NCBI GenBank assembly: GCA_964385105.1
Contig: CAYLMU010000002.1
Span: 250,583-314,582 of the forward strand
Direction: 5' to 3'
DNA: 64,000 nucleotides
Source: an uncultured Candidatus Saccharibacteria bacterium
Lineage (GTDB): Bacteria > Patescibacteriota > WWE3 > UBA101185 > UBA10185
Positions 10,546 through 23,774 of the stretch are shown here, piece after piece. A program made the position numbers and the translations under genes. The notes under the pieces were generated by a model. The model searched no databases and was not told where the DNA came from. It worked only from the letters and a program-made list of their open reading frames with translations. The stretch's first letter is position 1, and each line of letters starts with the position of its first letter.

Positions 10546-11168
10546 TTTCGGCTTTTTAGTTTTAGAATTGCAGCTGAAAGCCCTGATACCATAGCAATAG
10601 CCCCTGATGCATATATTAAAGCTGCATCACCTGTTGAAGCTAAGCCTAAAGTGCCACCTCTAACAGTAGATATAGCTCTTGCTAAAATTTCACCATCATC
10701 GTCGTCATCATCTTTTTTAGTGCTTGTACCTCCGGTACCACCTGTTTCACAACTTAAAGTTAAGTTAAACGCCATAAACGGGTCTCGGCTTAAACCCCAT
10801 ACCGAACCGTCGGGAATGTAAATCCATCCCTGGTCTGTTAAATATTCAATTGCATCAATACTTAAACTTGAAACTTTCCACCAGTTAGTCTGAATTCCTC
10901 TTCCATTAGGTGCACAAAAACATTGAACAACTGTTGTGTCAGATAAGGTGTAAACTGTATCTCTTCCTGTGTAAACCCGTGTGTCACCGGGAATTCCATG
11001 AGTACCTTCGCTATAGCTTACTTTTATTGTTCCTTGTGGATTATTACATGTAGGAAATGTGGGTATTACAAAATCATCATTAACTGATTGTGCAAATGAA
11101 GTATTTTGTGACAATAAAGCACAAATTACTATAAAAAGTATTAGATTAATATATTTCCTGCTTTTCAT
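10542..11168 (-). CDS. sortase-anchored surface protein with LAxTG-type sorting signal (LASTG)
   Basis: Signal peptide (MKSRKYINLILFIVICALLSQNTSFAQS); poly-Asp linker; C-terminal LASTG + hydrophobic segment + KSRK tail. Confidence 0.65.
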   Translation of the reverse strand: MKSRKYINLILFIVICALLSQNTSFAQSVNDDFVIPTFPTCNNPQGTIKVSYSEGTHGIPGDTRVYTGRDTVYTLSDTTVVQCFCAPNGRGIQTNWWKVSSLSIDAIEYLTDQGWIYIPDGSVWGLSRDPFMAFNLTLSCETGGTGGTSTKKDDDDDDGEILARAISTVRGGTLGLASTGDAALIYASGAIAMVSGLSAAILKLKSRK

Positions 11169-11233: not shown

Positions 11234-12499
11234 TTAATTAATAATCTCAAAAAATAATTTTTGTACTTTAAACAGCACATTTTCATTCTTTTTATTCAAA
11301 ACTACTTTGTACGATTTTTCATCATCACTAAGTAAATACACTTTTCCATAGTATCCGGGTGCTTCAATGTATGCTGATTGGTTATCGTTAAAAATCGGTA
11401 TACGCACTGTATTTGTGCCATTTACATAATTTTTATCAAGTGTTCTAACTGTAACGTCTTTTATTGGATGGTTTATTTTATTGTATGCGGCTAATTCTAC
11501 AAATTCAGGACTGTAGTAATTTTTAATTACTTCAACTGCGGGTTTTGGCGTACCGTCATCATTCCAGATTTTTGTTGAACCACCGTAACTTACCCAATAA
11601 TTCATTCCAACAAATTTTGGGTTTTCTACAAGAAGAGAAATCGCTTCATTGAGCCACTCAGCCTGCTCCTCGTCAGTCATACGCCCATGAATATCAGGTA
11701 CAGGCGCTCCAAATTCACCTAACACAACTTCTCCACCACTTCTTTCACCAATTTTTATAATATCATCGGCCAGTTTTTGAGGGCTTTCAACATAATGGTC
11801 AACTACTACAATTCCCCCCAAAGCTGTAGTAGTTTGCTTATTCATAATTAACTGAGCAACATCCCCATTCATTGAGAAGTAGTTTGATTTAACATCAACA
11901 CCTATTGAGTCAAATGCTTGAGAAGTTACCGCATACTCATCTATTAAGAATTCACGGTAATCTTCAACATCTCCTGTAAATCTTGGGTCACCGGGGCCGC
12001 CGTTTTCACACTCTGGGCATGATGAAAAAATATCGCCATCTCTAAATAAATGTTTATTTTGTAAAATAAATTCTTTTGTTTTGCTTAAATGTTCTTCACG
12101 GGTAATTGGGCTATAATCAAACCATTCTTCCCACCCTGCAAAATTTCCTCTAAACCAAACATTTAGTCCATGCTTTCTTGCACTGTTAACCCATTTTTCC
12201 AAAAAAGGAATAAATTCCTCATCATAAGGCGTTCCTACTGCAACGTGTGTTGCACCGGTTTGAGCAATATTTTTTACATGTTCATCAATTATTAAATCAA
12301 ATTCACTGTTTGATTTTTTTTCACGCGCTAAATCTCGCGAATATTTCATTGTGTCGATTGACTGAATCTCCCAGATTCTGTTAGTAACTTTTTCTGAATT
12401 TACAATATTTTTATGCAAAACCATTAAATTAAGGCTATATAACAAAACTAATAAAAGTAATATAAAAATGGTGTAGCGTAGATTTCTGAATACTTTCAC
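11234..12499 (-). CDS. membrane-anchored putative glycoside hydrolase (TIM-barrel, GH5/GH113-like)
   Basis: N-terminal TM; alternating beta/alpha pattern with conserved acidic residues (NVWFRGNFAGWEEW, VVLGEFGAP); first/last gene of glycosylation operon. Confidence 0.35.
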   Translation of the reverse strand: MKVFRNLRYTIFILLLLVLLYSLNLMVLHKNIVNSEKVTNRIWEIQSIDTMKYSRDLAREKKSNSEFDLIIDEHVKNIAQTGATHVAVGTPYDEEFIPFLEKWVNSARKHGLNVWFRGNFAGWEEWFDYSPITREEHLSKTKEFILQNKHLFRDGDIFSSCPECENGGPGDPRFTGDVEDYREFLIDEYAVTSQAFDSIGVDVKSNYFSMNGDVAQLIMNKQTTTALGGIVVVDHYVESPQKLADDIIKIGERSGGEVVLGEFGAPVPDIHGRMTDEEQAEWLNEAISLLVENPKFVGMNYWVSYGGSTKIWNDDGTPKPAVEVIKNYYSPEFVELAAYNKINHPIKDVTVRTLDKNYVNGTNTVRIPIFNDNQSAYIEAPGYYGKVYLLSDDEKSYKVVLNKKNENVLFKVQKLFFEIIN

Positions 12500-12508
12500 T
12501 TTTCCCTC

Positions 12509-14113
12509 CTACTTTTGCTTGCCTAAACTTGGGGTAGTGTTTAGCTGACCTATATATTCAGGCTTTAATTCGTAAATATCTGCAAATGGAAACTTCCCGA
12601 CCAGGTTGTATTTATCAATAGCACCGGATTCTTTAACACCTTTAAATGTTAAATCGTTATCATCGTGAGTTCGCATAATTATCCATCTTGCCCACCTGTC
12701 AGGTAGGGCAATTGCGCTTTCCCAATAAAGGCCTGTACCTTCATGAATAAACTTTTTCATAGGCATTCCCGACGAAAAGATTATGGCGTCATGAGATGCA
12801 GCTGAAATCAAAACAAAACCTTCTTTGTCGGCTGCATTTTCTCTAAGCCATCCGCTAACTTCAGTCACATTTTTTTGACTTGAACCTACTCTTGCATCAT
12901 CAATTGTCACAGCATCATAATTTCCAAAACCGAAAAATATAATTATAAAGATTAACCCTGCCACAACAGCTTTGAGATTTTTCATTTCATACAGCAAAAA
13001 TGTAACAAAAATGGCTATTGAGGGAGCTAACATTATTCCATAACGCACGTTAAACCAGGAAGTTCCAGATATGCCTTGAATAAAAAGTACTGAATGTCCA
13101 AGATAAAGGGCAATCACGTTAAATAAAAGTGGAGCAACCAGTGTCATAAGTGTTACTTTAATGCTTAAATTTATTCTTTTGCTAAACCAAACAGCAATTA
13201 CACCAAAAAATCCTAAAATAGCAGGAATTGTATAAGAATTGTAAAACAAAGCATATAAATACATTTTTGTGGAAAGTATTAAGTTTCCTTTTGTTGGTAA
13301 GTCCCCGGCTGCTTCAAGTTGGGTTTGCTGTGAATGAGCTGAAAACGGCCCAAATGCAAAATATAACGGGTCTTTAAAAATTAATAGATTCCAAACAAGC
13401 CATAAAAATATCCCTAAACCACCCATAGACATATATAACACTGCAGTTCCTTCAATTGCTTTAAAACCTTTTTTTCTGTATGTTTCAAAAACCACAATTA
13501 AAGTTGCAAAAAATAGCAGAAACCATCCATCATATCTTATTAAAGTCGCTAACATTATAAAAAACGAAGAACCTATTAAGTGAATCAGCCTATCGTCTTT
13601 TGTCCATAACAACAAATAAAACGCACCTGCGGTCATTGTTGCTAAAAGTAAAAGTTCAGTCATGGCGGTTGACTGCAAATATAAAACATTTAAATTTGCG
13701 GCAAACAAAAATACACCAAAAATCCTGTAATAAAACGGTATAGAAAGTTCTTTTAAAAACAAATATACTAAGACACCGGTTATAACAAAAGATGCCATCG
13801 ACTGAATTGCACCTGCTAATCCGGAATGCCACATAAAATCAGTCCAAATTGTTGGAATCATTAAAACGTGAGGCAAAGGAAGCCACACCGAACCGATTTG
13901 AGCTATTCCGGGCTTTAGACCTTCTACTACACGTCTTCCGATGTTTAAGTGAGACCTTGCATCGTTATATGCTAATCCAAGCCCATTGTCATAAAATCCA
14001 AGCCAGGCAACTATTGACGTACTCAGTAAGACTAAAACTATTAAAAACACTGCATTCTTTTCAAGATACTCGGTAATTATATTTATTTTCTTATAAGATA
14101 TAGAAATGTTCAT
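12509..14113 (-). CDS. GT-C fold glycosyltransferase (family 39/ArnT/PMT-like), polytopic membrane protein
   Basis: ~12 TM segments, N-terminal loop with conserved acidic/aromatic residues (AYNDARSHLNIGRR) typical of ArnT/PMT family. Confidence 0.5.
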   Translation of the reverse strand: MNISISYKKINIITEYLEKNAVFLIVLVLLSTSIVAWLGFYDNGLGLAYNDARSHLNIGRRVVEGLKPGIAQIGSVWLPLPHVLMIPTIWTDFMWHSGLAGAIQSMASFVITGVLVYLFLKELSIPFYYRIFGVFLFAANLNVLYLQSTAMTELLLLATMTAGAFYLLLWTKDDRLIHLIGSSFFIMLATLIRYDGWFLLFFATLIVVFETYRKKGFKAIEGTAVLYMSMGGLGIFLWLVWNLLIFKDPLYFAFGPFSAHSQQTQLEAAGDLPTKGNLILSTKMYLYALFYNSYTIPAILGFFGVIAVWFSKRINLSIKVTLMTLVAPLLFNVIALYLGHSVLFIQGISGTSWFNVRYGIMLAPSIAIFVTFLLYEMKNLKAVVAGLIFIIIFFGFGNYDAVTIDDARVGSSQKNVTEVSGWLRENAADKEGFVLISAASHDAIIFSSGMPMKKFIHEGTGLYWESAIALPDRWARWIIMRTHDDNDLTFKGVKESGAIDKYNLVGKFPFADIYELKPEYIGQLNTTPSLGKQK

Positions 14114-15702
14114 TTTATCTTCCTTTTTACATGTTCTTTACTTAAATAAGCAGAAGTCATGAGTAAAAATGAATAACCTAAAATAGCACCTGAAACACCG
14201 TAGTAATAAGTTCGGGCTTTCAAGTAGTCTGAGGCAAACTCCTTAAAAAACACTGATTTGGAATTTCCGGCCTCAATGAATTCCCAGCTTCTATCATAAG
14301 AATACCTTTCTACTCTATTTGTTAGAGCCTCAAGAGGTAAAGCCTGAACCTTGGGTGGAATAGCGTTAGTTGTCAAAGCCCCCAAAGTATTTACAAAAAC
14401 AGAATATGTAAGTAAAACAGCAAAAGCTAATACAAACACGCTGTTTTTATAATATTTCTCAATTGCAAAACCAATAAAAATGGCCATTATTGCATACATC
14501 GGTATCAAATATCTTGCACCAAATGCCCATCCGCCCCACGGGTCGCCCCACATAGAGTATAAAACAAGATTCATAATCGCTGTTCCAAACAAAAGTGAGA
14601 GATATTTATCATCTCGTTTATAAAGCACATAAATTCCAACTAAGCCCAACAACATAACCGGTGTAAATTTAATTATTCCTCTGTCTGGACTTAAAAGTAA
14701 AATGTACATACCGTTTACAATGTCACGCGGCTCAAATATTTCTAATACATATTTTTCCTGGCTTTCAGGGTTCAAATAAATATCAAGTAAGGTTTCATCT
14801 ATTTCCTCGGTTACTGCGGGTTTTCCGTCGTCACCTATAGCAGCAATACTTGGCACGGTTCCAGACAATTGAAATGGGTTTCCATAAGAATAGTAATTAA
14901 ATAACCCAAATAAAACTACCGGAGCTATAATACCTAAAAATGTTAGTAACATCGCGGGTTTGAATGATATTTCCATTTCATTTTGTAGTTTATTTGTTTT
15001 AAATAAAGTAATAAAGGAATATATTCCAACCGGTAACATTAAGAACAAATTTGGGTTATCTATTGCTACAGAAGCTGCACACAAAAACCAAACAATAAAG
15101 TAAGTGATCCATTTGTCTTTGAATCTAATTAATAAATAAATCGAGAATAATATTAAAAATGTTGAAATATGATGCTGATACAACGTTACTGCATAGGCAA
15201 ACGCCGGTGTTGCAAATAAAAATGTAAAACCTGCTAGAGTTGCAATTTTTTCGTTCAAATTAAAATACTGCAATATTTTTTTGACAAGCAAAAAGTTAAA
15301 AAACGCAAACAATGAAATTACAGCAAATGTTCCGACTTGGGAGTAACCTAATGCTTTTCCTACTATAAATCCCGGTATAACAATTACAGAGACACCCGGT
15401 GCAAATAAAGAAACATACTTATCATTCAAATAACCAAGATCCGGTGCCGTAAAACGTGCTAGTGGAATTTGAAAAAAGAAAGATTTATCTTCTATAAGTG
15501 AGTAGGTTAGCGCAAATCTGCCACGTTCCGGCGAAACCTCAAAAGGGCCGTCTCGCAACCACTCATTGCTCAACAAATCAGTTGTTGTGGGATTTCCTGT
15601 CTGACCTCTTATTGAGAGTGCCAGTACAAGGATTACAAACAATAACGATAATATTGATGCTAAGTTTGATATATTTAATAAACTTAATATTTTCTTTTTC
15701 AT
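14110..15702 (-). CDS. GT-C fold glycosyltransferase (ArnT/PMT-like), polytopic membrane protein
   Basis: Multiple TM segments; N-terminal extracytoplasmic loop; paralogous organisation to 12509-14113; start overlaps upstream stop. Confidence 0.5.
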   Translation of the reverse strand: MKKKILSLLNISNLASILSLLFVILVLALSIRGQTGNPTTTDLLSNEWLRDGPFEVSPERGRFALTYSLIEDKSFFFQIPLARFTAPDLGYLNDKYVSLFAPGVSVIVIPGFIVGKALGYSQVGTFAVISLFAFFNFLLVKKILQYFNLNEKIATLAGFTFLFATPAFAYAVTLYQHHISTFLILFSIYLLIRFKDKWITYFIVWFLCAASVAIDNPNLFLMLPVGIYSFITLFKTNKLQNEMEISFKPAMLLTFLGIIAPVVLFGLFNYYSYGNPFQLSGTVPSIAAIGDDGKPAVTEEIDETLLDIYLNPESQEKYVLEIFEPRDIVNGMYILLLSPDRGIIKFTPVMLLGLVGIYVLYKRDDKYLSLLFGTAIMNLVLYSMWGDPWGGWAFGARYLIPMYAIMAIFIGFAIEKYYKNSVFVLAFAVLLTYSVFVNTLGALTTNAIPPKVQALPLEALTNRVERYSYDRSWEFIEAGNSKSVFFKEFASDYLKARTYYYGVSGAILGYSFLLMTSAYLSKEHVKRKIK

Positions 15703-16247
15703 AATCCAAGTGAAAAATAAAAAAACTTCAATTTTTTCTTTTCACACTCTCTAAATGAGTCACCATTAGATTCCATTTTTAACTTCTCATAGGCTTGTTT
15801 GTTTTTTTTAAGAAGTTTGTATGCTCTAATATTCCTTGCGAACATTGGATTATTTGGGCTTACGAGCACAAATTGAATATCACACTTGTTTTTACTTAAT
15901 GACCACTCAATAAAATTCCTTCTACGTTTTTTCGGTAAGCCTAAAATTTTAATCAATCCGGGCAAATACTTATCAAAATCTTTTGGATTACTCACTGCAA
16001 ATAAATCAATATCTCTTTGACCTGCAATTTTAAGGGCCGCAGAGCCAAAGAAATGAATTTTTAATTTCGGGTATAGCTTATGAATCCTGCTAATGAGCTT
16101 ATTTCCTAATTCGGTTACTTTCGGGTCATAAGGCTTTATTTTTACGTATTTATCACTAGGATAAGTATACAAATACAAATATTGCTTTGGCCCTTTTAAG
16201 AACATAAGCAATTCGATATAAATTGTATTTAAAACTTTATCAGTCAT
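15699..16247 (-). CDS. GrpB-family nucleotidyltransferase-fold protein
   Basis: YDPKV...HFFGSAALKIAGQRDIDLFAV matches GrpB core (YDPxW ... GSTxVPGLxAKPxIDI); start chosen at MTDKV immediately after upstream stop instead of overlapping longer ORF. Confidence 0.45.
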   Translation of the reverse strand: MTDKVLNTIYIELLMFLKGPKQYLYLYTYPSDKYVKIKPYDPKVTELGNKLISRIHKLYPKLKIHFFGSAALKIAGQRDIDLFAVSNPKDFDKYLPGLIKILGLPKKRRRNFIEWSLSKNKCDIQFVLVSPNNPMFARNIRAYKLLKKNKQAYEKLKMESNGDSFRECEKKKLKFFYFSLGL

Positions 16248-16248
16248 G

Positions 16249-17001
16249 CTATTTGTAAAAATACACTTCTTGTTTTGAGGGCGGGATTTGTTTAAATATT
16301 GCATCAAACTGTGACTCATACATTTTCATTAAATGAAGCTTTTTGTTCCAATCTGGCAAAACCTCTTCAGATTTATAATCCGAAACTTTAGCTTGTGAGT
16401 TAACCGAATATGGAAAATCTTCCCAGAAAATGCTTTCGGTTTTCAATGTCTTAATAGCCTCATTTACAACTATATGGTCTATATGATTGCCTATTCCGAT
16501 AGGCGCAAAGATTGTATCAAATTGATAAGTATTCGTCAAAAACCCTATTCTGTCGGCTATAATTTCTATAAGCAGTTTGTCTTTTTTATGTATATTGCCT
16601 TTGATTATATGTAGTCTATAGGTCGGATAAAGTGAATTGATTTCAGGCAATATTTTACCAAGTTCGTAAAGAAAACCTGATGACTGTTTTTGTCTCCACA
16701 AAGCTTCTATAAAACCCAAATTAATAATATTACATCCCATATTTGTTAACACCTTTCGGTCTTCTTCAGTTCGAGCTTTGTATAACTCACCAGCAATTTC
16801 ATAACCACATTGCTTTAAATAAGCTTTTGCTGACAAAGTGTTATATTTATGAGGAGTTTGAGTAAAAACATTTATTATTGTAACTTTACATCCGCCTTCA
16901 ACTAATTTATTAATTAACCCTCCAGCTGAAAAAACTGCATCATCAAAATGAGGGGATACAAAGGCACAGTGACTTTTATTTTTTATTAATTCATTAAGCA
17001 T
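16249..17001 (-). CDS. PIG-L/LmbE family N-acetylglucosaminyl deacetylase
   Basis: VSPHFDDAVFSAGG and GNHIDH zinc-binding motifs. Confidence 0.75.
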   Translation of the reverse strand: MLNELIKNKSHCAFVSPHFDDAVFSAGGLINKLVEGGCKVTIINVFTQTPHKYNTLSAKAYLKQCGYEIAGELYKARTEEDRKVLTNMGCNIINLGFIEALWRQKQSSGFLYELGKILPEINSLYPTYRLHIIKGNIHKKDKLLIEIIADRIGFLTNTYQFDTIFAPIGIGNHIDHIVVNEAIKTLKTESIFWEDFPYSVNSQAKVSDYKSEEVLPDWNKKLHLMKMYESQFDAIFKQIPPSKQEVYFYK

Positions 17002-18106
17002 TTGCTAAAATTCCTTTTATAAATTTTGTGTATGACTTGGCAATTGCATCCCACGTAAACATTTGCGCGTATCTATTGCCTTCAATTTCAAGAAATTCCG
17101 CATATTTTCTGTTTTTTATAATATTAGATACTGCTTCTGAGAACCCATTTATATCAAAAGGAGATACTTTTACAGCAGTATTTTGTGGTATCCAAGATAA
17201 ACCTTCTATGTCAAAACAAACTATTGGCAACTTATGAGCCATGGCTTCGAGTGCCACCATAGAAAAGGTCTCAAAGCGTGAAGTAATTGCCATACATTGT
17301 GATTCACACAATAACTGTTCTTTTTGCTTTCCTGAAACACGTCCTATTAATTCAACATTATTTTGTAATTTATTTTTTTTGATGAGGTACTTCAGTTTTT
17401 TAATTTCATCACTATGCCCGTCACCGGCAATAATTAGTTTATATGAACTATTTCCATCTTCTACAAACTTTTTGAATGCTTTTATTAACAAGTCCAGTCC
17501 CTTTTGATTAACCTCGATTCGACCCAAATAAAGAATCTGATTTTCTTTTTTTGATTTATTTGAAACTATTTTTTCAATTCCGTTGCTTATTATTTGTATA
17601 TCACATGCAGGATTTATTGATTTGAGCTTTTTTTGCATGTATTCACTAGTGGTGACAATTATTTTATAGTGTTTTAAGCCCAATTTTTCAACTAAATGAA
17701 ATGGAAGCTTGTATTTTCTTTTCATATCTTCTGCTGCAAGCATGTGTACCACACCAACTACCGGTTTTTTAGTGACTGATGGCAAAAAAGCAGTTGTGAA
17801 AGGCGGAGAGAAGCTTTCCATCCATATGTCATATTTTTTTAATTTGCAATGAATTGGCAAAGTTAACTGAAACAGCAATAAACCAAGTCGGGGGGTTATT
17901 AACCTGTGTCCAACCCTTTGATATAAAACTCCATCAATAATCTCAACAGACACACCTGAATGGTTCCAGGTTAAAATTTTTAAATCATATTTTTCATTTA
18001 GTCGTTTAGCCAATTCATGTACAGCAATTGCTCCGCCTCCGCCATAATACGGGTTTTTTATATCATCATATGTTGAAATTAATAGTTTTTTCTTTTTTTT
18101 GTTCAT
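16994..18106 (-). CDS. glycosyltransferase family 4 (GT-B)
   Basis: N-terminal GGGGA donor-binding loop, C-terminal EGFGMV-like motif FSMVALEAMAHKLPIVCFDIEGL. Confidence 0.75.
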   Translation of the reverse strand: MNKKKKKLLISTYDDIKNPYYGGGGAIAVHELAKRLNEKYDLKILTWNHSGVSVEIIDGVLYQRVGHRLITPRLGLLLFQLTLPIHCKLKKYDIWMESFSPPFTTAFLPSVTKKPVVGVVHMLAAEDMKRKYKLPFHLVEKLGLKHYKIIVTTSEYMQKKLKSINPACDIQIISNGIEKIVSNKSKKENQILYLGRIEVNQKGLDLLIKAFKKFVEDGNSSYKLIIAGDGHSDEIKKLKYLIKKNKLQNNVELIGRVSGKQKEQLLCESQCMAITSRFETFSMVALEAMAHKLPIVCFDIEGLSWIPQNTAVKVSPFDINGFSEAVSNIIKNRKYAEFLEIEGNRYAQMFTWDAIAKSYTKFIKGILANA

Positions 18107-19014
18107 ATAATCCTAAATAGAAAGGTGATATATTGTTTTGCTTTACCTTGAATTCTGTTTGAACCAAGTGACATATCAAATAAAACACTGTAATACAAGA
18201 AAAATTTGTATTCATCACGATTTTTGGTGTCACTTAATGTTTCAGACAAAAATAAAGCCATTTCAAGTTCATAATCTTTCTCCCACATGCTATAAAACGT
18301 ATTTGCAAAGTCATGAGCTTTAATTGAAATGCAAAATAGCTGAAGGTCTATAATTGATAATTTATTGCCGCTTTTTATGATATTTGATGTATTTAAGTCT
18401 TTATGTACAAATCCATAATCTGTTGTTTTTATAACCTTAGGTGCATGCAGCATCATTTTTAAAAATGATTTCATAATTGGGGCAAACTCAAAAGGATTTT
18501 TCACTACAGCAAGTAAGGCCATAAATGGTGCAAGTAATACAAACTGCTCAACATAACGTTTTTTAAAAACTTCTAATATATAAGCATCATCTTCTTTTGC
18601 AAATTCATATAGTTTATTCAAATAGGTAAAACTCTGCTGAATTGATTTTATCTTCACTTTTATAGGAAGCTGTCTTAAAGTATCACCATTCACTCTTTCT
18701 AATAAGATAAGAAAAATATCTTTGTCTTCGTATGTTAGAAAATGTTTGGGAAATGAAACGTTTGAGTTTTTTATATTTTTGCTTAATTTTAATAAGGCTT
18801 TGTATGCCAGGTCTTCGTTTCTTAGCTCATTAAGCTTATTTTCGTTTAGCTTTTCACACATTTTTGCTATATATTCGTTACCTTCACAGTCAACATATAT
18901 TGCAAAATCATATTTACATTTAATAAGTGCCAGTTGTTCCTGAAGTTGAAAGCTTTCTTCAAGTGTCAGCGGGAAATTATTTGATATTTGTGTTGAATAG
19001 CTTACAAGACTCAT
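18103..19014 (-). CDS. protein kinase-like/aminoglycoside phosphotransferase-fold protein (putative sugar or small-molecule kinase)
   Basis: HKDLNTSNII (HxDxxxxN catalytic loop) and IDLQ (metal-binding D) motifs. Confidence 0.45.
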   Translation of the reverse strand: MSLVSYSTQISNNFPLTLEESFQLQEQLALIKCKYDFAIYVDCEGNEYIAKMCEKLNENKLNELRNEDLAYKALLKLSKNIKNSNVSFPKHFLTYEDKDIFLILLERVNGDTLRQLPIKVKIKSIQQSFTYLNKLYEFAKEDDAYILEVFKKRYVEQFVLLAPFMALLAVVKNPFEFAPIMKSFLKMMLHAPKVIKTTDYGFVHKDLNTSNIIKSGNKLSIIDLQLFCISIKAHDFANTFYSMWEKDYELEMALFLSETLSDTKNRDEYKFFLYYSVLFDMSLGSNRIQGKAKQYITFLFRII

Positions 19015-19016
19015 CT

Positions 19017-22000
19017 TTACTCAGTGCTTTTAACTAAATTGAAACGAAATCTTGGTTGAACAACGGCTTTTTTTGCTTCTTTTATTTCAATATAGGTCTG
19101 AATACATTCGGCAAAGTTATTTGAAATCCTATTCCAGTCAAAGTTTTCAGCCCAACTTAATGAATTTTTTTCATACTTAGCTCTTAATTCATCATCAATA
19201 AGTATTTTTTTGATAGCCTTAGAAAATGCTTTACTATTTCCAACTTCTACAGTAATACCGGTATATTTGTTTTTTACCGAATCAACCAACCCTGGAACTC
19301 GTGAAGCAACAACCGGTGTACCACATGCGTTTGCTTCCAGAACCGAAATGCCCCATCCTTCCATTGTTGATGGTTGTACAAAGACCCAAGCGCTCGATAA
19401 AAGTTTAATCTTTTCATCATCACTCACCCTACCTAAAAATTTCACGTTATTTTCAAGGTTTAACTCCTTTACCAATACTTCAAGGCGTTTTCTGCTCTCA
19501 CCAAAACCTGCAATCTTAACCTCTATATACGGCATAGTTTTTGCAAGATTTCGTGTGGCATATATTAGTGTTTCAAGTGATTTATATGGTTTTAAACGCC
19601 CTAAGTATAAAATTGACGGATTGACTGTTTTTGGACCGGGTTTTAAGTCGTTTAAGTCAACTCCAGGACTCATAATAATAATGTTGGAGTTTCTACCAAA
19701 TCCAATTCGTTCCATATCACTTTTGGATGAATTGGAAACTGTAACCATTTGAACATTTCTGTATACAAATGGCATAATTTTTGATTCTAATTGCTTGGCT
19801 ATAAACGCAACAGGCCATGAAGTAATGGGTAATTTTAGCTGTTTAAAAATTATTTCACTGTGAACATGGTGAACAAGACCAATAACCGGAGTTCGGGTAT
19901 AAAGTGGTGCAAAAAACGGAACTCCGTTTTCACTGTCAATTATAATGTCGTATTTGCTTCTAAACTTAAAAATGTAGTAGAAAAATGCCCAAATATAAAC
20001 TGTATAAAAACCGCCCCGTCTAACTACGTTAACTCCTTCTACTTGCTCGTTTCTTGTGTTTTTTCCGTCATTGCCGCAAAAAAGTGTTACATCATGACCA
20101 TCTTTAACCCATCTCTTTGCTAACTCATGAACATATACTTCAGCACCGCCTGCCCATACATGTTTTGTATCACGCCAATTCAAAATTAAAATGTTTAGCT
20201 TTCCGTCAGCTTTATAATCTACGTGTGCATATGCCGGTTGTGAATATTTTGGTAGCAAATCCAAAATGTCATGAGAAACTTCAATGAATTTTTCTTTAAA
20301 AGTGTGAAGTATTGCAACAGCAACCAAAAAGAATGCACCGCTTAAGATCATGACATTAACAACATGTGAAATATTTGCATGAAAAACATATAAACCAACA
20401 CTTTGCACTATAACAGTGAGAATCCCCGGAATTGCAAAAATATATTCTCTTCTTGCGTGATAATAAGTTACTACAGCATAAGCAACAGAAAAGAACATCA
20501 TAGCAAACGAAAATCTTATTAAATAAGGCAATATGGGCAATGCTTTTTCACCAAATAAAATCGGTATAGTTATGCTTCCTGCCAAACCTACTATAATAAA
20601 GGCAACAAAAGTTGAACTTACAATTGCAAGTAAAATCTTTTTAAATGCTACAGAAGTTTTTGAACCTGCACCTGCATCTTTGCTGACTATAGGAATAATA
20701 AATTGAGCAAACATGCTTCCAATCATATATACCATACGTCCAACAAGAATTAACAAGGCATACTGACCTGCCTCAATAGCACTTAAATAATGCTTTACAA
20801 AAATCAAGTCAAGACTCAAAAATGTCACAGCTGATAATTTGGTTAAAACGGCTGTTGTAAAAAATTTCTTTGATAATTTAAGATTTTCAGGTTTTTCAGG
20901 TTCTTGCTCTGTACGCGGTAACGCGGACCTAGCAATTCTTGCAGCTATTACCCATCCAACAACCATGGATACCAAAATTGAAATCGGTAAAGCTGTATAA
21001 ACCCACTCGCCCATATTAAATTGAACAAAAACAACAGAAAAAGCTAATTTAACGAATGCGCTAATTACAACCAAAAGTGCTAAAGCATAAAATTTGTGGC
21101 TTCCTTCCAAAAAACCAGTGTTTACTGCCTGAATGAGCAAAAGAGTCCACATTGGTGCAAATACAATAAACGGTACTAAAGTGTGTGAATTAAAAAATGT
21201 TGAAAGAAGAGGTATTGATGCTATCCATCCCGCAACTAGAATCAATGAGATTTTGGTTAATTTGTTTCTATATGTGTACCAAATCTCACTTCTTAACGAA
21301 TTATACTTTCCAAATAAAAATGCCGTGTTATTAGAAATTGTTTGAGCAACTCCCGCGGCTGGTATTTGAGCTATAAACATAAAACTACTCAATAATGCAA
21401 TAAGACCAAATCCTTCTTCGCTCAGTGTTCTCCCAAGGTAAGCGCTTGTTAAAAAGTTTAAAACGTTGGCAACCATTGTTGCTGCAATAAGCGCTAAACC
21501 GGCTGAAACGGTTGTATCATATAAGTTTTTGATTGTTGCTGTAGATATAGCCGGTTTTACAGTCGGCAAAGAGACACGCGGAAACGCCAGTGTTGGCCTT
21601 GATATAAATGCAAGTTTTCGGCTTTTTTTTGTAATGTTAAGATGCAGCCCATGATGTGTTTTTTCCCAGTGGTGAGGTTTAAATATTAATTGCCAAAAAG
21701 CCATTACTGCTGCTATACTCATTAAAAACCAGTAAAAAGGCACAAAAAATACAAATTTAATAAGGTTATACTTTTCGCGTTTAGCCAGCCCAATCATGTA
21801 GTTGTAGATATACAAAAAGTTTCCAAATACGAGTGAAAACGCTGCCATATAAAACACAAGTGATGGAAACAAAGCTTCAATCGTCTCACCTACATATTCG
21901 TTGAATACAAAGTATGAAATTGTTGCAAGCCATAAAATCGGGTTAATTAAAATAAAGCTAATTCTTAATCCAATTATTAATTGAAAGATTAAAGCATGAA

Positions 22001-23774
22001 TACCTTGTTTTCTTAAAAATGCAAGCGGGTCTCGCATATGAACAAGATAAGTTTGCATATAACCCTTTAACCATCTAGATCTTTGTCTTATCCAGTTTTT
22101 GACATTACTATTTGCTTCTTCTAAAGTTGTTGAATCAATAATTGCGGTCTTGTAGCCTTCTTTAAATAACCTGGCGCCCAAATCACAATCTTCAGTAACA
22201 TTAAACGGATCCCATCCATGAAGGTCTTTTAAGTATTGAGCTTTAAAGTGATTGCTTGTACCTCCTAACGGAATTGTTGTTTCAATACTCTGCAAACCCG
22301 GCAAAATGATATCAAACCACAAAGTATATTCGGCAGTAAACATTCTTGTTAATAAGTTGTGGTGGGGATTATAATAATTTAGCTTTGCCTGAACACAAAT
22401 AATATCCTCAGGAAGATTTTTAAATGCTAAATAAGCTTTTTTAAGCTGTAAAGAATCGGGCATGTCTTCGGCATCATAAATAACCACATATTCACCTGAG
22501 GCCATTTTTAATCCATAATTGCATGCTTTTGGTTTAGTTTTTGGCATAGAATGCGGAACAACGACGGTTTTGAAATATTCAGGCAAATTAAGCTTTTCGG
22601 CGGCTTTAACTGTCACATCATCGTCTTCTTCGAGTAATAACAGAACTTCAAGTTTATCTTTTGGCCAGTCTAGGGCACTAATTGCCTCAACAAAATTTTT
22701 TAAAACCGCATCTTCTTTATATAAGGGACATAAAATTGTATATATGGGCAAATTTTCATCTGATAAGCTATTTAATTCATCGGTATTTGGCTGAATTTCA
22801 GGCGGGTGGCTTAAACTCTTTAAAATTAGATAAATATTGAACAATACGTCCAAAAAGTAAATTGCACTCAATATTGCTAAAATCCAGATTAAAGTTTTAA
22901 AAGGATAAAATATTAAACTAGCTATAAACAAGACGATAACTGCAGAAATTAAGAATTTTTGATCTCTTTTTAGTGTGTATAAAGCGGATTTATAATGTGG
23001 AAGATTTGTATGAGTTTTATAATGCTTTCCTTTGTACACTGTGCTATGAGAATCTGTATCGTTGTGAGCTATGTGAAAAACCCGTCTTACTGTAAGTTTA
23101 GTTTTAATTGCAGCTATAGCTAATGCCCAGGCTGTTTTTGCAAAATTTATATTAGACGACCCGTTAACTCTTAAAACATAGTCAATGTCAACCCCGCCTA
23201 TTTTGTAGCCCAATTCTTTTGCTGTATGAAGTAATGTAACATCGAGTGTCCATGGTGTTACATGCTCAACATTCATATGATTTGCAATTTCTCGCTTGAA
23301 AACTTTTAACCCAGATTGAGTATCACAGTTAAGTCCCAATAAAAATTTTCCAAAAATTAATTTGTTTAATCTTGAACCTGCTTTTCTTACAAAAGTACTT
23401 GAATAAGTTCGTCTGTTTGCAACAACAACCCCTAAATTATCGATATATGCTTTTTTCAACATTTCAGGCAGTACCTCAGGAGGATATTGAAGATCCCCGT
23501 CTATAAATGCGACATATTCTGTTATGGCTAATTGCAAACCTTCAATAATAGAATAGCCCTTACCTTGTATACCTTTTTTTGTATGAATTTTTATAGGAAA
23601 TTCTTTTGAAAGATTAGTTAATATTTTTACAGTGGCATCTTTTGAATTATCATCAACAAAAATCAGCGTAAAATCAATATTTGCAACATCCATTGCACCT
23701 GATAGGCGATTCACTAATTCATTCAAGTTTTTCTCTTCATTATAAACCGGTATAATAATATCTAGAGCTTTCAT
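19017..23774 (-). CDS. 1585-aa multidomain glycosylation protein: GT2 (DPM1-like) + processive GT2 synthase (QxxRW) + Wzx/MOP-like flippase domain + GT4
   Basis: N-term IIIPVYNEE...FVDDNSKD (GT2); second GT2 with YDAEDMPD, VTEDCD, QRSRW motifs; ~12 TM region with Wzx-like pattern (LLILVGRMVYMIGSMF); C-term GT4 with EGWGISVLEANACGTPVVAS; uninterrupted 4.7-kb ORF in AT-rich DNA. Confidence 0.8.
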   Translation of the reverse strand: MKALDIIIPVYNEEKNLNELVNRLSGAMDVANIDFTLIFVDDNSKDATVKILTNLSKEFPIKIHTKKGIQGKGYSIIEGLQLAITEYVAFIDGDLQYPPEVLPEMLKKAYIDNLGVVVANRRTYSSTFVRKAGSRLNKLIFGKFLLGLNCDTQSGLKVFKREIANHMNVEHVTPWTLDVTLLHTAKELGYKIGGVDIDYVLRVNGSSNINFAKTAWALAIAAIKTKLTVRRVFHIAHNDTDSHSTVYKGKHYKTHTNLPHYKSALYTLKRDQKFLISAVIVLFIASLIFYPFKTLIWILAILSAIYFLDVLFNIYLILKSLSHPPEIQPNTDELNSLSDENLPIYTILCPLYKEDAVLKNFVEAISALDWPKDKLEVLLLLEEDDDVTVKAAEKLNLPEYFKTVVVPHSMPKTKPKACNYGLKMASGEYVVIYDAEDMPDSLQLKKAYLAFKNLPEDIICVQAKLNYYNPHHNLLTRMFTAEYTLWFDIILPGLQSIETTIPLGGTSNHFKAQYLKDLHGWDPFNVTEDCDLGARLFKEGYKTAIIDSTTLEEANSNVKNWIRQRSRWLKGYMQTYLVHMRDPLAFLRKQGIHALIFQLIIGLRISFILINPILWLATISYFVFNEYVGETIEALFPSLVFYMAAFSLVFGNFLYIYNYMIGLAKREKYNLIKFVFFVPFYWFLMSIAAVMAFWQLIFKPHHWEKTHHGLHLNITKKSRKLAFISRPTLAFPRVSLPTVKPAISTATIKNLYDTTVSAGLALIAATMVANVLNFLTSAYLGRTLSEEGFGLIALLSSFMFIAQIPAAGVAQTISNNTAFLFGKYNSLRSEIWYTYRNKLTKISLILVAGWIASIPLLSTFFNSHTLVPFIVFAPMWTLLLIQAVNTGFLEGSHKFYALALLVVISAFVKLAFSVVFVQFNMGEWVYTALPISILVSMVVGWVIAARIARSALPRTEQEPEKPENLKLSKKFFTTAVLTKLSAVTFLSLDLIFVKHYLSAIEAGQYALLILVGRMVYMIGSMFAQFIIPIVSKDAGAGSKTSVAFKKILLAIVSSTFVAFIIVGLAGSITIPILFGEKALPILPYLIRFSFAMMFFSVAYAVVTYYHARREYIFAIPGILTVIVQSVGLYVFHANISHVVNVMILSGAFFLVAVAILHTFKEKFIEVSHDILDLLPKYSQPAYAHVDYKADGKLNILILNWRDTKHVWAGGAEVYVHELAKRWVKDGHDVTLFCGNDGKNTRNEQVEGVNVVRRGGFYTVYIWAFFYYIFKFRSKYDIIIDSENGVPFFAPLYTRTPVIGLVHHVHSEIIFKQLKLPITSWPVAFIAKQLESKIMPFVYRNVQMVTVSNSSKSDMERIGFGRNSNIIIMSPGVDLNDLKPGPKTVNPSILYLGRLKPYKSLETLIYATRNLAKTMPYIEVKIAGFGESRKRLEVLVKELNLENNVKFLGRVSDDEKIKLLSSAWVFVQPSTMEGWGISVLEANACGTPVVASRVPGLVDSVKNKYTGITVEVGNSKAFSKAIKKILIDDELRAKYEKNSLSWAENFDWNRISNNFAECIQTYIEIKEAKKAVVQPRFRFNLVKSTE

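What the first reader, a model, noticed from the sequence alone, without database searches (positions are those of the whole stretch)
19017..23774. Single 1585-aa polypeptide fusing two GT2 domains, a Wzx-like flippase domain and a GT4 domain
This one uninterrupted ORF encodes four modules in order.
- A DPM1-like GT2 (PVYNEE...FVDDNSKD).
- A processive synthase-type GT2 with the D,D,D,QxxRW signature (YDAED, VTEDCD, QRSRW).
- A ~450-aa polytopic region resembling MOP/Wzx oligosaccharide flippases.
- A GT4 (EGWGISVLEANACGTPVV).

Initiating, polymerising, translocating and decorating activities are normally separate proteins in polysaccharide pathways. A covalent fusion of all four in one chain is not an architecture I recognise. 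It could be a self-contained polysaccharide or glycoconjugate synthase-exporter.
Basis: partly seen in the sequence, partly recalled or inferred. Interest (0 to 1): 0.75.

Follow-up and report, generated by a model that had tools for sequence, protein, structure and literature searches.

The report
Four-module envelope-glycan megasynthase of CPR bacteria
One 1585-residue membrane protein really does join two GT2 sugar-transferases, a Wzx-type lipid-sugar flippase and a GT4 transferase; it is conserved across hundreds of ultra-small (CPR/Patescibacteria) bacteria but uncharacterised, and looks like a polysaccharide synthase welded to the machinery that decorates its product outside the cell.

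Summary
Window 19017-23774 (minus strand) is one uninterrupted 1585-aa ORF with four modules. They are a DPMS/GtrB-like GT2, a BcsA/HAS-like membrane GT2 with D/DxD/ED/QRSRW, a 12-TM MOP (Polysacc_synt) flippase, and a GT4.

It is not an assembly artefact. At least 120 full-length homologues (46-56% identity) exist in Microgenomates and other CPR genomes, and the catalytic residues of all three transferases are invariant.

It is not self-contained. It heads a conserved operon with two GT-C (PMT_2-like) glycosyltransferases, a secreted protein, a sortase and a sortase substrate.

The core GT2b module occurs in many other phyla at 45-59% identity. There it is fused to c-di-GMP-binding MshEN domains. 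It sits next to a canonical three-component glycosylation set: a GT2a-like GT2, a GtrA/DPMS-TM flippase and a PMT_2 GT-C.

Best reading:
- GT2b polymerises and exports a beta-glycan.
- GT2a makes a polyprenyl-phosphate sugar.
- The MOP module, with GT4, replaces GtrA and flips it.
- The GT-C pair decorates the polymer outside the cell.

The product is unknown. No paper describing the protein was found. I rate it a new variant of known kinds, of moderate interest.

The parts
23085..23774 (-). Module 1 (aa 1-230): GT2a, a DPMS/GtrB/ArnC-like GT-A glycosyltransferase and putative polyprenyl-phosphate sugar synthase. Invariant D42, D92-x-D94, D151, Q153, R121, R202.
22968..23084 (-). aa 231-269: short beta-hairpin and linker between GT2a and the first TM helix. 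Moderately conserved.
   Evidence: AF2 secondary structure. Conservation.
22809..22967 (-). aa 270-322: TM hairpin (TM1-TM2). It belongs to the GT2b core, because stand-alone GT2b homologues start here. Invariant Y306 and D309.
   Evidence: Hydropathy. AF2 helices 270-289 and 291-322. Homologue boundaries.
22035..22808 (-). Module 2 (aa 323-580): GT2b catalytic GT-A domain of a BcsA/HAS-type membrane synthase. Invariant D385, D434-A-E-D437, PLGGTSNHF (502-510), E528-D529 and Q564-R-S-R-W568. This is the most conserved part, with 70% identity across the family.
21639..22034 (-). aa 581-712: GT2b membrane part. It comprises TM3 (592-623), a short acidic outside helix (625-634), TM4 (638-665), a hydrophobic helix 669-698 that is probably interfacial or re-entrant, and the invariant cytoplasmic motif W703-E-K-T-x-H-G709. 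Stand-alone homologues end at that motif.
   Evidence: topology. (invariance). (homologue ends).
21516..21638 (-). aa 713-753: variable, K/R-rich linker that AF2 predicts as disordered.
   Evidence: pLDDT below 50 for residues 718-752. About 12% identity and 28% gaps across the family.
20250..21515 (-). Module 3 (aa 754-1175): 12-TM MOP-superfamily (PST/Wzx-type) flippase module, N-in/C-in.
20199..20249 (-). aa 1176-1192: variable linker between MOP and GT4.
   Evidence: 10% identity, gappy. 10-residue block mean pLDDT 64-79 for model residues 431-450 = protein 1170-1189.
19020..20198 (-). Module 4 (aa 1193-1585): GT4 retaining GT-B glycosyltransferase. Invariant G1209-G-A-E1212, R1393, K1398 and E1472...E1480 (EX7E). 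The N-terminal acceptor domain is more conserved (60%) than the C-terminal domain (47%).
   Evidence: Pfam PF13439 and PF00534. PDB hits to SPS, MshA, PimA and BshA. Foldseek MshA 1.7e-16. Conservation.
18103..19014 (-). Downstream gene 1: APH/Bud32-like kinase-fold protein (303 aa). Variable accessory gene.
   Evidence: Pfam APH at 2.6e-5. Present in only some related loci.
16994..18106 (-). Downstream gene 2: stand-alone GT4 (370 aa). Frequent accessory gene.
   Evidence: Pfam. 43-55% identical homologues in L005, L011, L019, L021, L024, L026 and L030.
16249..17001 (-). Downstream gene 3: PIG-L family de-N-acetylase (250 aa). Frequent accessory gene, sometimes fused to the GT4 or to a GT2.
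   Evidence: Pfam PF02585..
15699..16319 (-). Downstream gene 4: GrpB/nucleotidyltransferase-like protein (206 aa). Weak call.
   Evidence: Pfam GrpB at 1.3e-4, below the cut-off.
14110..15702 (-). GTC1: polytopic 530-aa membrane protein. Conserved partner and putative GT-C glycosyltransferase.
   Evidence: NCBIfam NF047440 LA_3751/LA_3752 putative glycosyltransferase at 3.6e-17. Present in nearly all CPR loci. Distant paralogue of GTC2 by hhalign, 92% probability.
12509..14113 (-). GTC2: polytopic 534-aa membrane protein. It is the most conserved partner (55-68% identity in CPR) and belongs to a PMT_2-type GT-C family. Invariant D51 lies in the first outside loop.
   Evidence: 9 of 31 family members hit PMT_2 and 2 hit PMT. 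Fused to GT2b in Chloroflexota.
11234..12499 (-). sec421: membrane-anchored secreted 421-aa protein. Conserved partner and possibly a glycoside hydrolase (weak support).
   Evidence: Conserved in 18 or more loci. 3 of 18 members hit Glyco_hydro_cc and 8 of 18 hit CarboxypepD_reg. No PDB hit. No detectable similarity to the GH5 domain of L047.
10542..11168 (-). Putative sortase substrate (208 aa): signal peptide, then C-terminal LASTG, a hydrophobic segment and KSRK.
   Evidence: Sequence. Homologues lie next to the sortase in related loci.
10009..10545 (-). Sortase (178 aa).
   Evidence: Pfam PF04203 at 8.5e-25. Conserved at the cluster end in several loci.

Best explanation
The ORF encodes a genuine, functional, single-chain four-module membrane enzyme. 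It carries out the cytoplasmic-face half of a cell-envelope glycopolymer pathway in a CPR (Patescibacteria; Microgenomates/Dojkabacteria-like) bacterium.

Proposed mechanism:
1. The central GT2b module is a BcsA/hyaluronan-synthase-type inverting synthase. With its four TM helices and interface helices it polymerises a beta-linked glycan from a nucleotide sugar and extrudes it.
2. The N-terminal GT2a module (DPMS/GtrB/ArnC type) charges a polyprenyl phosphate with a sugar at the cytoplasmic face.
3. The MOP (Wzx-type) module flips that lipid-linked sugar. The GT4 module tethered to it, helped by the accessory GT4 and PIG-L genes, may first add to the lipid-linked sugar.
4. The two GT-C enzymes encoded downstream (GTC1 and GTC2, PMT_2-like) use the flipped donor outside the membrane. 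They glycosylate the emerging polymer or another envelope acceptor.

In short, it is a synthase-dependent polysaccharide synthase fused to the first two components of a 'three-component / multi-component transmembrane glycosylation system'.

Shown here:
- Module identities and folds.
- Conservation of catalytic residues.
- A topology that places all three transferase domains in the cytoplasm.
- Conservation of the fusion and of its partner genes.
- The existence of the same functions as separate neighbouring genes in other phyla.

Inferred, not shown: processivity, the lipid carrier, which product the MOP module flips, the role of GT4, and the sugar chemistry.
For: Real and functional:
- At least 120 full-length homologues with 46-56% identity and 97-100% coverage, from NCBI, JGI, ENA and Logan assemblies.
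- Full-length copies in GTDB genomes of Dojkabacteria, Woesebacteria and Amesbacteria, among others; in Daviesbacteria (L010) it is split into two ORFs within the TM hairpin.
- Catalytic motifs of all three GT modules are invariant in 57-100 sequences.
- The inter-module linkers alone are unconserved.

Folds:
- Foldseek gives MshA, BshA and PimA for GT4.

Topology: the positive-inside pattern puts GT2a, GT2b and GT4 in the cytoplasm, with a 12-TM N-in/C-in MOP module.

Partners: GTC1, GTC2 and sec421 follow the gene in nearly every CPR locus. The GTC2 family hits PMT_2 and PMT.

Rosetta-stone evidence:
- The GT2b core is fused to a GTC2-like GT-C in Chloroflexota.
- In Paenibacillus, Cohnella, Sporolactobacillus and a Chloroflexi MAG, MshEN-GT2b lies next to a GT2a-like GT2, a GtrA/DPMS-TM flippase domain (separate or fused) and a PMT_2 GT-C.
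- In a Dormibacterota MAG, one ORF combines a GT2a-like GT2, a GT-C and a GH5 domain.

The MshEN (c-di-GMP receptor) fusions of non-CPR homologues fit an exopolysaccharide synthase; MshEN is a known c-di-GMP receptor fused to glycosyltransferases (PMC5013675; NfrB, PMC8669469).

The framework of a GT-A C55-P-sugar synthase, a flippase (GtrA-type, or Wzx-type as in GacK) and a GT-C is established (PMC8035078).
Against: - No biochemical data exist for any member, and the polymer, sugars and lipid carrier are unknown.
- GT2b has only four clear TM helices plus interface helices. I could not inspect model coordinates, so a closed channel is not demonstrated.
- GT2a lacks the GtrA/DPMS TM domain that its stand-alone relatives carry.
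- MOP-GT4 is a very common stand-alone didomain: 35 of the best 150 representatives. This suggests the flippase may serve the GT4 product rather than the GT2a product.
- Many non-CPR GT2b homologues (Mucilaginibacter, Pedobacter, Nocardioides) show no BLAST-detectable GT-C or GT2a neighbour.
- The window's own GTC1 and GTC2 do not reach Pfam thresholds; the call rests on NCBIfam and on relatives.
- The hydrolase assignment of sec421 is weak.
Confidence: 0.55

Rival explanations
1. Lipid-linked oligosaccharide assembly line (Wzx-dependent logic, like archaeal Agl or bacterial Pgl pathways). GT2a starts a glycan on a polyprenyl phosphate. GT2b and GT4, plus the accessory GT4 and PIG-L, extend the same carrier non-processively. 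The MOP module flips the finished oligosaccharide. The GT-C enzymes then transfer it, or extend it, onto a protein such as the neighbouring sortase substrate, or onto the wall.
For: - All three GT sites and the flippase lie in one chain at the same membrane face.
- MOP-GT4 is a common didomain, which suggests the flippase takes the product of a GT.
- GTC2 is PMT_2-like, the family of protein O-mannosyltransferases.
- A sortase and a Ser/Thr/Gly-rich substrate are conserved at the end of the cluster.
- A Wzx-type rather than GtrA-type flippase fits an oligosaccharide cargo.
Against: - Its relatives carry c-di-GMP receptor domains typical of EPS synthases.
- In other phyla the GT2a-like gene comes with a GtrA-type flippase, which handles monosaccharide carriers.
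- No phosphoglycosyl transferase or Wzy-like gene was detected in the cluster.
Confidence: 0.2
2. Lipoglycan or glycolipid-anchor pathway analogous to mycobacterial PIM/LM/LAM or eukaryotic GPI synthesis. GT4 (PimA/PIG-A-like) glycosylates a membrane lipid and PIG-L de-N-acetylates it. The MOP module flips the glycolipid. GT2a (the DPM1/Ppm1 equivalent) supplies polyprenyl-P-sugar. The GT-C enzymes elongate the glycolipid outside, possibly as an anchor for sortase-processed proteins.
For: - The GT4 module is closest to MshA, BshA, PimA and PimB'.
- A PIG-L deacetylase and a second GT4 are frequent neighbours.
- The set DPM1-like GT2 plus GT-C plus flippase matches the logic of those pathways (textbook knowledge).
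- The GT4 N-terminal (acceptor) domain is unusually conserved.
- A sortase lies in the cluster.
Against: - This model leaves the best-conserved module, GT2b, without a role.
- PIG-L and the extra GT4 are absent from many loci, for example L003, L006, L007 and L012.
- The ancestral triad in other phyla lacks GT4, MOP and PIG-L.
- No lipid acceptor can be inferred from sequence.
Confidence: 0.12
3. The MOP bundle packs against the GT2b TM helices, in the position where BcsA has TM7-8, to form one hybrid export channel for the polymer.
For: The MOP module begins shortly after the W-E-K-T-x-H-G motif. From my own knowledge of BcsA, that position corresponds to its gating loop, which TM7-8 follow. 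GT2b alone has few TM helices.
Against: - The 41-residue connector is unconserved, gappy and mostly predicted disordered (pLDDT below 50 for 718-752).
- pTM of the residues 1-1200 model is only 0.66 although its pLDDT is 88.5.
- GT2b works without any MOP module in most lineages, and the MOP module occurs as a separate gene or is absent, as in the GT2a-GT2b-GT4 forms L026 and L029.
- In Chloroflexota the same position is occupied by a GT-C instead.
Confidence: 0.05
4. Artefact: an assembly chimera, or a read-through of several genes.
For: None found. One relative (L010) is split into two ORFs inside the TM hairpin. That looks like a frameshift in that genome, not in this one.
Against: - An identical protein is on record from an NCBI assembly (P0001).
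- At least 120 independent full-length homologues come from four data sources, with conserved order and in-frame junctions.
- Full-length copies occur on contigs up to 1.27 Mb.
Confidence: 0.01

Closest known systems
Multi-component (three-component) transmembrane glycosylation systems: GtrB/GtrA/GtrC, CsbB/GtcA/YfhO, and especially S. pyogenes GacI(+GacJ)/GacK/GacL (PMC8035078; bioRxiv 10.1101/180810)
   Same: Both have a GT-A family-2 enzyme of the polyprenyl-phosphate-sugar type (GT2a), a flippase and polytopic GT-C enzymes (GTC1, GTC2) encoded together. As with GacK, the flippase is Wzx-type rather than GtrA-type. As with GacI/GacJ, the GT-A part has no TM domain of its own and depends on another membrane element.
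   Different: - Here the GT-A and the flippase sit in one polypeptide together with a synthase-type GT2 and a GT4.
- There are two GT-C paralogues.
- The acceptor polymer appears to be made by a fused synthase, not by an ABC-transporter or LtaS pathway.
- Nothing has been shown biochemically.
Membrane-embedded processive GT2 synthases: bacterial cellulose synthase BcsA, hyaluronan synthases (CvHAS, XlHAS1), PgaC/IcaA, NfrB
   Different: - Sequence similarity is low: 19% to BcsA, 21% to NfrB, and 99 bits against the 422-bit cut-off of the PgaC_IcaA model.
- It has only about four TM helices and no PilZ domain.
- The CPR protein has no MshEN domain.
- It forms a distinct, highly conserved subfamily (PLGGTSNHF and WEKTxHG motifs) whose product is unknown. 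JGI labels some members 'XagB'.
Dolichol/polyprenyl-phosphate mannose synthases and relatives (PfDPMS 5mlz, GtrB 5ekp, ArnC)
   Same: These are the best PDB sequence and fold matches of GT2a. GT2a has a conserved DxD. Stand-alone GT2a-like neighbours of GT2b in other phyla carry the GtrA/DPMS TM domain, which is the DPMS architecture.
   Different: The CPR module has lost the GtrA/DPMS TM domain. It is anchored through the TM hairpin of GT2b. Its donor and acceptor are untested.
MOP-superfamily PST flippases (Wzx; WzxE structure 9g95)
   Different: - There is no PDB sequence-level match.
- It is covalently tethered to glycosyltransferases on both sides.
GT4 enzymes acting at the membrane or on small acceptors: MshA, BshA, PimA/PimB', PglA, with PIG-L-type deacetylase partners (MshB, BshB, PIG-L)
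   Same: GT-B fold, EX7E motif, best structural matches, and a PIG-L family gene in the same operon.
   Different: It is fused to the C-terminus of a flippase. The acceptor is unknown, and PIG-L is not universally present.

Membership tests
GT2 polyprenyl-phosphate glycosyltransferases (DPMS / GtrB / ArnC type) - module 1 | GT-A fold with a DxD metal/nucleotide-sugar site | tested here: met
   [not shown]
GT2 polyprenyl-phosphate glycosyltransferases (DPMS / GtrB / ArnC type) - module 1 | Own membrane anchor (C-terminal TM hairpin or GtrA/DPMS TM domain) with juxtamembrane helices | tested here: inconclusive
   No PF04138 hit. An amphipathic helix at 211-227 is followed by a TM hairpin at 270-322. 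That hairpin is homologous to the N-terminus of stand-alone GT2b proteins. Stand-alone GT2a-like relatives do carry PF04138.
GT2 polyprenyl-phosphate glycosyltransferases (DPMS / GtrB / ArnC type) - module 1 | Transfers a sugar to polyprenyl/dolichyl phosphate | not testable with these tools
   Needs an enzyme assay with C55-P and nucleotide sugars.
Membrane-embedded processive GT2 synthases (BcsA / HAS / chitin synthase / PgaC) - module 2 | D, DxD, (T)ED and QxxRW motifs | tested here: met
   D385, D434-A-E-D437, E528-D529 and Q564-R-S-R-W568 are all invariant.
Membrane-embedded processive GT2 synthases (BcsA / HAS / chitin synthase / PgaC) - module 2 | GT-A domain inserted between TM helices, with interface helices forming a translocation channel | tested here: inconclusive
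   [not shown]
Membrane-embedded processive GT2 synthases (BcsA / HAS / chitin synthase / PgaC) - module 2 | Processive polymer synthesis coupled to export | not testable with these tools
   Inferred from the fold and from the MshEN-fused relatives.
PgaC/IcaA poly-beta-1,6-GlcNAc synthase (TIGR03937) | Score at or above the equivalog cut-off | tested here: not met
   99.5 bits against a cut-off of 422.3. It is not a PgaC orthologue.
MOP superfamily, PST (Wzx-type) flippases - module 3 | Pfam Polysacc_synt match above the gathering score | tested here: met
   39.3-43 bits against 28.2. 7 of 25 family members match, one matches Polysacc_synt_3 and one matches MatE.
MOP superfamily, PST (Wzx-type) flippases - module 3 | 12 TM helices in two 6-TM lobes, with both termini cytoplasmic | tested here: met
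   [not shown]
MOP superfamily, PST (Wzx-type) flippases - module 3 | Translocates a polyprenyl-(pyro)phosphate-linked sugar | not testable with these tools
   Inferred from the family and from its standing where relatives have GtrA.
GT4 retaining GT-B glycosyltransferases - module 4 | Two Rossmann-like domains, an EX7E motif and a Gly-rich N-terminal loop | tested here: met
   Pfam PF13439 and PF00534. E1472 and E1480, G1209-G-A-E1212, R1393 and K1398 are invariant. Foldseek MshA E 1.7e-16, TM-score 0.81 on the target.
Multi-component transmembrane glycosylation system (PMC8035078) | GT-A C55-P-sugar synthase, flippase and GT-C encoded together | tested here: met
   GT2a and MOP lie in the ORF, with GTC1 and GTC2 downstream in nearly all CPR loci. 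The GTC2 family hits PMT_2 and PMT. The window's GTC1 and GTC2 hit NCBIfam NF047440.
Multi-component transmembrane glycosylation system (PMC8035078) | Extracytoplasmic transfer of the sugar from the lipid carrier to an envelope polymer | not testable with these tools
   Requires genetics or biochemistry.
c-di-GMP-controlled EPS synthases (MshEN/PilZ-bearing) | Presence of a c-di-GMP receptor domain | tested here: not met
   The window protein has no MshEN or PilZ hit. Non-CPR homologues do have MshEN. The CPR form has lost this control, or never had it.

The most novel reading that the evidence does not exclude
The fusion and its conserved operon build a previously unknown envelope structure specific to CPR bacteria. 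A synthase-made beta-glycan or lipoglycan would be branched outside the cell by two GT-C enzymes. It would also serve as the attachment site, or the glycosylation machinery, for the sortase-processed surface protein encoded at the end of the cluster. That would be a combined glycan-protein surface layer made by one megasynthase. More broadly, the MshEN-GT2b / GtrB-like / GtrA / GT-C set would define a new, pan-bacterial, c-di-GMP-controlled class of 'decorated synthase-dependent' exopolysaccharide systems.
Probability: 0.15. Interest if true: 0.8.

Novelty: new variant of a known kind. Interest (0 to 1): 0.55.

Why it matters
CPR/Patescibacteria make up a large share of bacterial diversity. 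They are mostly uncultured, live attached to other cells, and have almost uncharacterised envelopes. A single, highly conserved gene that unites a polysaccharide synthase, a lipid-sugar donor synthase, a flippase and a further transferase gives a concrete handle on their surface glycan. It always comes with two GT-C enzymes, and in at least nine of the related loci also with a sortase.

The fusion also acts as a Rosetta stone. It links an uncharacterised but very widespread GT2 synthase family to an extracytoplasmic glycosylation system. In Paenibacillus, Mucilaginibacter, Nocardioides and Chloroflexota that family is fused to c-di-GMP receptors. This predicts a new kind of c-di-GMP-controlled, side-chain-decorated, synthase-dependent exopolysaccharide that can be tested in culturable bacteria.

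As a one-chain, multi-activity membrane machine it is also an attractive target for cryo-EM.

Tried and rejected
- Assembly artefact: rejected, because there are 120 or more independent full-length homologues.
- PgaC/IcaA, XagB or NfrB orthology for GT2b: rejected. The PgaC model scores far below its cut-off and NfrB is only 21% identical. XagB is only a JGI label with no chemistry behind it.
- PDB sequence or profile searches for the MOP module, GTC1, GTC2 and sec421 gave nothing useful.
- Foldseek on the MOP+GT4 model was swamped by GT4 hits and said nothing about the MOP part.
- sec421 as a GH5: hhalign against the GH5 domain of L047 found no similarity. Only 3 of 18 relatives touch Glyco_hydro_cc, so the hydrolase call stays tentative.
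- The promoter/terminator scan of the operon found fewer sites than shuffled controls and was uninformative.
- The look-up of encoding contigs found no record for the window's own protein. The listing of cluster members gave no names.
- Four literature searches for the fusion, or for CPR glycosyltransferase/sortase clusters, found nothing relevant. The one promising hit (PMC11340318) used 'fused' only for cloning.
- The single-conduit idea could not be tested directly, because AF2 coordinates and PAE are not exposed and the full 1585-aa chain exceeds the 1200-aa limit.


Full report

Yes. The ORF listing shows one ATG-initiated ORF at 19017..23774 on the minus strand. It is 1585 codons long with no internal stop. 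Given the AT-rich composition (GC 0.32-0.35), the chance of 1585 stop-free codons is about 2.5e-49.

Pfam finds four blocks above the gathering thresholds:
- Glycos_transf_2 at aa 6-151.
- Glyco_tranf_2_3 / Glyco_trans_2_3 at aa 345-624.
- Polysacc_synt (MOP/PST) at aa 760-1032, 39 bits against 28.2.
- Glyco_transf_4 plus Glycos_transf_1 at aa 1209-1538.

NCBIfam places the first GT2 near PgfS and ArnC. It places the second nearest PgaC/IcaA, but far below that model's cut-off (99 against 422 bits). It places the C-terminus among MshA, BshA and EpsE-like GT4s.

**2. Is the fusion genuine?**

Yes. A search of 5.8 billion proteins returned an identical NCBI entry. It also returned at least 120 proteins of 1513-1630 aa covering 97-100% of the query at 46-56% identity. 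They come from NCBI, JGI, ENA and Logan assemblies. Where named, they are labelled Microgenomates, Amesbacteria, Curtissbacteria, Beckwithbacteria, Woesebacteria or 'Patescibacteria group'. They are annotated only as 'glycosyltransferase', 'hypothetical protein' or 'XagB'.

Alignments of 57 and of 100 sequences show the catalytic residues of all three transferases are invariant:
- GT2a: D42, D92-x-D94, D151 and Q153.
- GT2b: D385, D434-A-E-D437, PLGGTSNHF, E528-D529, Q564-R-S-R-W568 and W703-E-K-T-x-H-G709.
- GT4: GGAE 1209-1212, R1393, K1398 and E1472...E1480.

Identity differs by module:

| Region | Identity |
|---|---|
| GT2b | 70% |
| GT4 N-terminal domain | 60% |
| GT2a | 47% |
| MOP | 38% |
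| Connectors 713-753 and 1176-1192 | about 10%, gap-rich |

This is the pattern of a selected multi-domain enzyme with flexible tethers. It is not the pattern of a chimera.

**3. Structure and topology**

AF2 with 100-sequence alignments gave two models:
- Residues 740-1585: pLDDT 92, pTM 0.83.
- Residues 1-1200: pLDDT 88.5, pTM 0.66, with residues 718-752 below pLDDT 50.

PDB sequence searches agree for GT2a, GT2b and GT4. They find nothing for the MOP module.

Hydropathy, AF2 helices and the positive-inside rule give a self-consistent topology:
1. GT2a in the cytoplasm.
2. TM hairpin 270-322.
3. GT2b in the cytoplasm, with QRSRW on an interface helix.
4. TM3, an acidic outside turn, then TM4.
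5. A hydrophobic helix at 669-698 whose two flanks are both K/R-rich, so it is probably interfacial or re-entrant.
6. The cytoplasmic WEKTxHG motif and a basic linker.
7. A 12-TM N-in/C-in MOP module.
8. GT4 in the cytoplasm.

All nucleotide-sugar-dependent domains therefore face the cytoplasm, as they must.

From my own knowledge of BcsA, the WEKTxHG position resembles its FxVTxK gating loop. That comparison is an inference, not a test.

**4. Genomic context in the window**

The ORF is the first gene of an 11-gene, same-strand, tightly packed run from 23774 down to 8763:
1. The megasynthase.
2. An APH/Bud32-like kinase-fold protein.
3. A GT4.
4. A PIG-L de-N-acetylase.
5. A GrpB/nucleotidyltransferase-like protein.
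6. A 530-aa polytopic protein, GTC1.
7. A 534-aa polytopic protein, GTC2.
8. A membrane-anchored secreted 421-aa protein, sec421.
9. A 208-aa protein with a signal peptide and a C-terminal LASTG, hydrophobic segment and KSRK.
10. A sortase.
11. A secreted 422-aa protein.

GTC1 and GTC2 have no Pfam hit of their own. Both match NCBIfam NF047440, 'LA_3751/LA_3752 family putative glycosyltransferase', at 3.6e-17 and 3.9e-5.

**5. Context in relatives**

In Amesbacteria and Woesebacteria loci the giant gene again leads an operon. The middle genes vary: dTDP-sugar genes, GT2s, methyltransferase, PIG-L-GT2. The pair of membrane proteins of about 510-540 aa is constant. In Amesbacteria the secreted proteins and the sortase are constant too.

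Across 80 GTDB loci, the following homologues lie downstream of the giant gene or its split parts in nearly every CPR locus with enough flank:
- GTC1.
- GTC2 (55-68% identity).
- sec421 (44-60% identity).

The closest GTDB genome is a Dojkabacteria MAG (L005). It is 55% identical for the megasynthase and 68% for GTC2.

Of 31 GTC2-family members, 9 hit Pfam PMT_2 and 2 hit PMT. GTC1 is a distant paralogue by hhalign, at 92% probability. Both are therefore best read as GT-C glycosyltransferases of the PMT/ArnT kind. Such enzymes use polyprenyl-phosphate sugars outside the membrane (established knowledge; PMC8035078).

sec421 is only weakly hydrolase-like.

**6. How the fusion was built**

ORF and BLASTP analysis of the loci, together with a search of 1.84 billion representatives using the MOP module, show every intermediate form in CPR genomes:
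- GT2b alone (L032, L034).
- GT2b plus a separate MOP gene (L033, L035).
- GT2a-GT2b (L020, L023, L027, L045).
- GT2a-GT2b next to MOP-GT4 (L025, L031).
- GT2b next to MOP-GT4, with the N-terminus cut by the contig end (L036).
- GT2b-MOP-GT4 (L009, L011, L015, L018).
- GT2a-GT2b-GT4 without MOP (L026, L029).
- The full four-module form.

Among the best 150 MOP representatives the counts were:

| Architecture | Count |
|---|---|
| MOP alone (including fragments) | 91 |
| MOP-GT4 | 35 |
| GT2b-MOP-GT4 | 12 |
| Full four-module form | 9 |

The protein is thus a join of two recurrent units, GT2a-GT2b and MOP-GT4.

**7. The key comparative result**

The GT2b core (aa about 262-712, ending right after WEKTxHG) is found at 45-59% identity in many phyla. 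These include Chloroflexota, Actinomycetota (Nocardioides, Solirubrobacterales), Bacteroidota (Mucilaginibacter, Pedobacter), Bacillota (Paenibacillus, Cohnella, Sporolactobacillus), Aquificota, Dormibacterota and others.

There it carries N-terminal MshEN domains, up to six of them. MshEN is a high-affinity c-di-GMP receptor known to be fused to glycosyltransferases (PMC5013675). It controls the NfrB exopolysaccharide synthase (PMC8669469). NfrB itself is only 21% identical to GT2b.

In Chloroflexota, GT2b is fused at its C-terminus to a GTC2-like PMT_2 domain. Other lineages place the partner functions in neighbouring genes:
- Paenibacillus thalictri and Cohnella silvisoli: a GT2a-like GT2, a 129-140-aa GtrA/DPMS-TM protein and a PMT_2 GT-C.
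- Sporolactobacillus and a Chloroflexi MAG: the GT2a-like GT2 is fused to the GtrA/DPMS-TM domain, which is the DPMS architecture.
- A Dormibacterota MAG: one ORF joins a GT2a-like GT2, a GT-C and a GH5 domain.

So the synthase-type GT2b is ancestrally linked to a canonical three-component glycosylation set. In CPR, the GT-A component has been fused to the synthase. The GtrA-type flippase has been replaced by a Wzx-type MOP module, which brings a GT4 with it.

**8. Mechanism**

The best-supported model has four steps.
1. GT2b polymerises and extrudes a beta-linked glycan.
2. GT2a loads a polyprenyl phosphate with a sugar.
3. The MOP module flips it.
4. GTC1 and GTC2 transfer it to the polymer or another envelope acceptor outside.

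This is the logic of GacI/GacK/GacL and of the GtrABC and CsbB/GtcA/YfhO systems (PMC8035078), grafted onto a synthase-dependent polymerase.

The GT4 role is the least certain. MOP-GT4 is a stable unit, and a Wzx-type flippase typically carries oligosaccharides. I therefore infer that GT4 adds to the lipid-linked sugar before flipping, with the accessory GT4 and PIG-L where they are present.

**9. Novelty and verdict**

Each module belongs to a well-known kind, and the operon logic matches known systems. No characterised protein or paper with this architecture was found. The GT2b subfamily and its link to GT-C enzymes are also undescribed.

It is common in databases, in hundreds of CPR genomes, and only generically annotated. 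I rate it a new variant of known kinds, with interest 0.55. It is a useful Rosetta-stone fusion and a handle on the CPR envelope, not a new principle.

Noticed in passing
window 39484-41205 (-): A third GT-C glycosyltransferase (573 aa) lies 16 kb away from the cluster, next to a helicase-like gene and near an ABC/MacB-HlyD exporter set. It has clear PMT_2 (8.3e-12) and PMT (5.3e-10) hits. It is another potential consumer of the polyprenyl-P-sugar made by the GT2a module.
   Followed up: partly
window 24683-27076 (-): A 797-aa protein combines a spermine/spermidine-synthase-like domain (aa 290-459) with a C-terminal M28 peptidase domain (aa 580-792). This is an unusual pairing. It lies just upstream of the cluster and next to tRNA-Phe.
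   Followed up: no
window 27357-28538 (-): A protein of the bacterial archaeo-eukaryotic release-factor-like (baeRF) families 3, 6 and 7.
   Followed up: no
window 10542-11168 (-) and 10009-10545 (-): A small secreted protein ends in LASTG, a hydrophobic segment and KSRK. It lies directly upstream of a sortase whose start overlaps its end by 4 nt. This pair recurs at the end of the glycan cluster in at least nine related loci (L001, L010, L011, L016, L019, L021, L025, L041). That suggests a functional tie between the sortase substrate and the glycan machinery.
   Followed up: partly
L039, L040, L046, L048 (Chloroflexota / Ktedonobacteraceae), ORFs of 970-1002 aa: The GT2b core is fused C-terminally to a PMT_2-type GT-C domain, at the position where CPR proteins carry the MOP module.
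   Followed up: partly
L053:7451-11590 (Chloroflexi MAG): A 1380-aa GT2b homologue has six tandem MshEN (c-di-GMP receptor) domains N-terminal to the synthase.
   Followed up: no
L047:11281-14598 (Candidatus Nephthysia, Dormibacterota): A single 1106-aa ORF combines a GT2a-like GT2, a GTC2-like membrane region and a GH5 cellulase-family domain. It lies directly after the GT2b gene.
   Followed up: partly
L010:9968-14657 (Daviesbacteria): The megasynthase is split into two overlapping ORFs of 337 and 1243 aa. The break lies in the middle of the TM hairpin, not at a domain boundary. It is probably a frameshift or sequencing error in that MAG.
   Followed up: no
GTDB record titles of L007, L008, L016, L018, L019, L021, L023, L025-L028, L031, L034, L036, L037, L041: Many MAGs labelled 'uncultured Gammaproteobacteria', 'Bdellovibrionales' or 'Pseudomonadales' carry the typical CPR cluster with CPR-level identities. 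The organism names in these TPA assemblies look unreliable.
   Followed up: no
window 15699-16319 / 16249-17001 (-): The listed start of the GrpB-like ORF overlaps the PIG-L gene by 71 nt. The true start is probably a downstream ATG.
   Followed up: no
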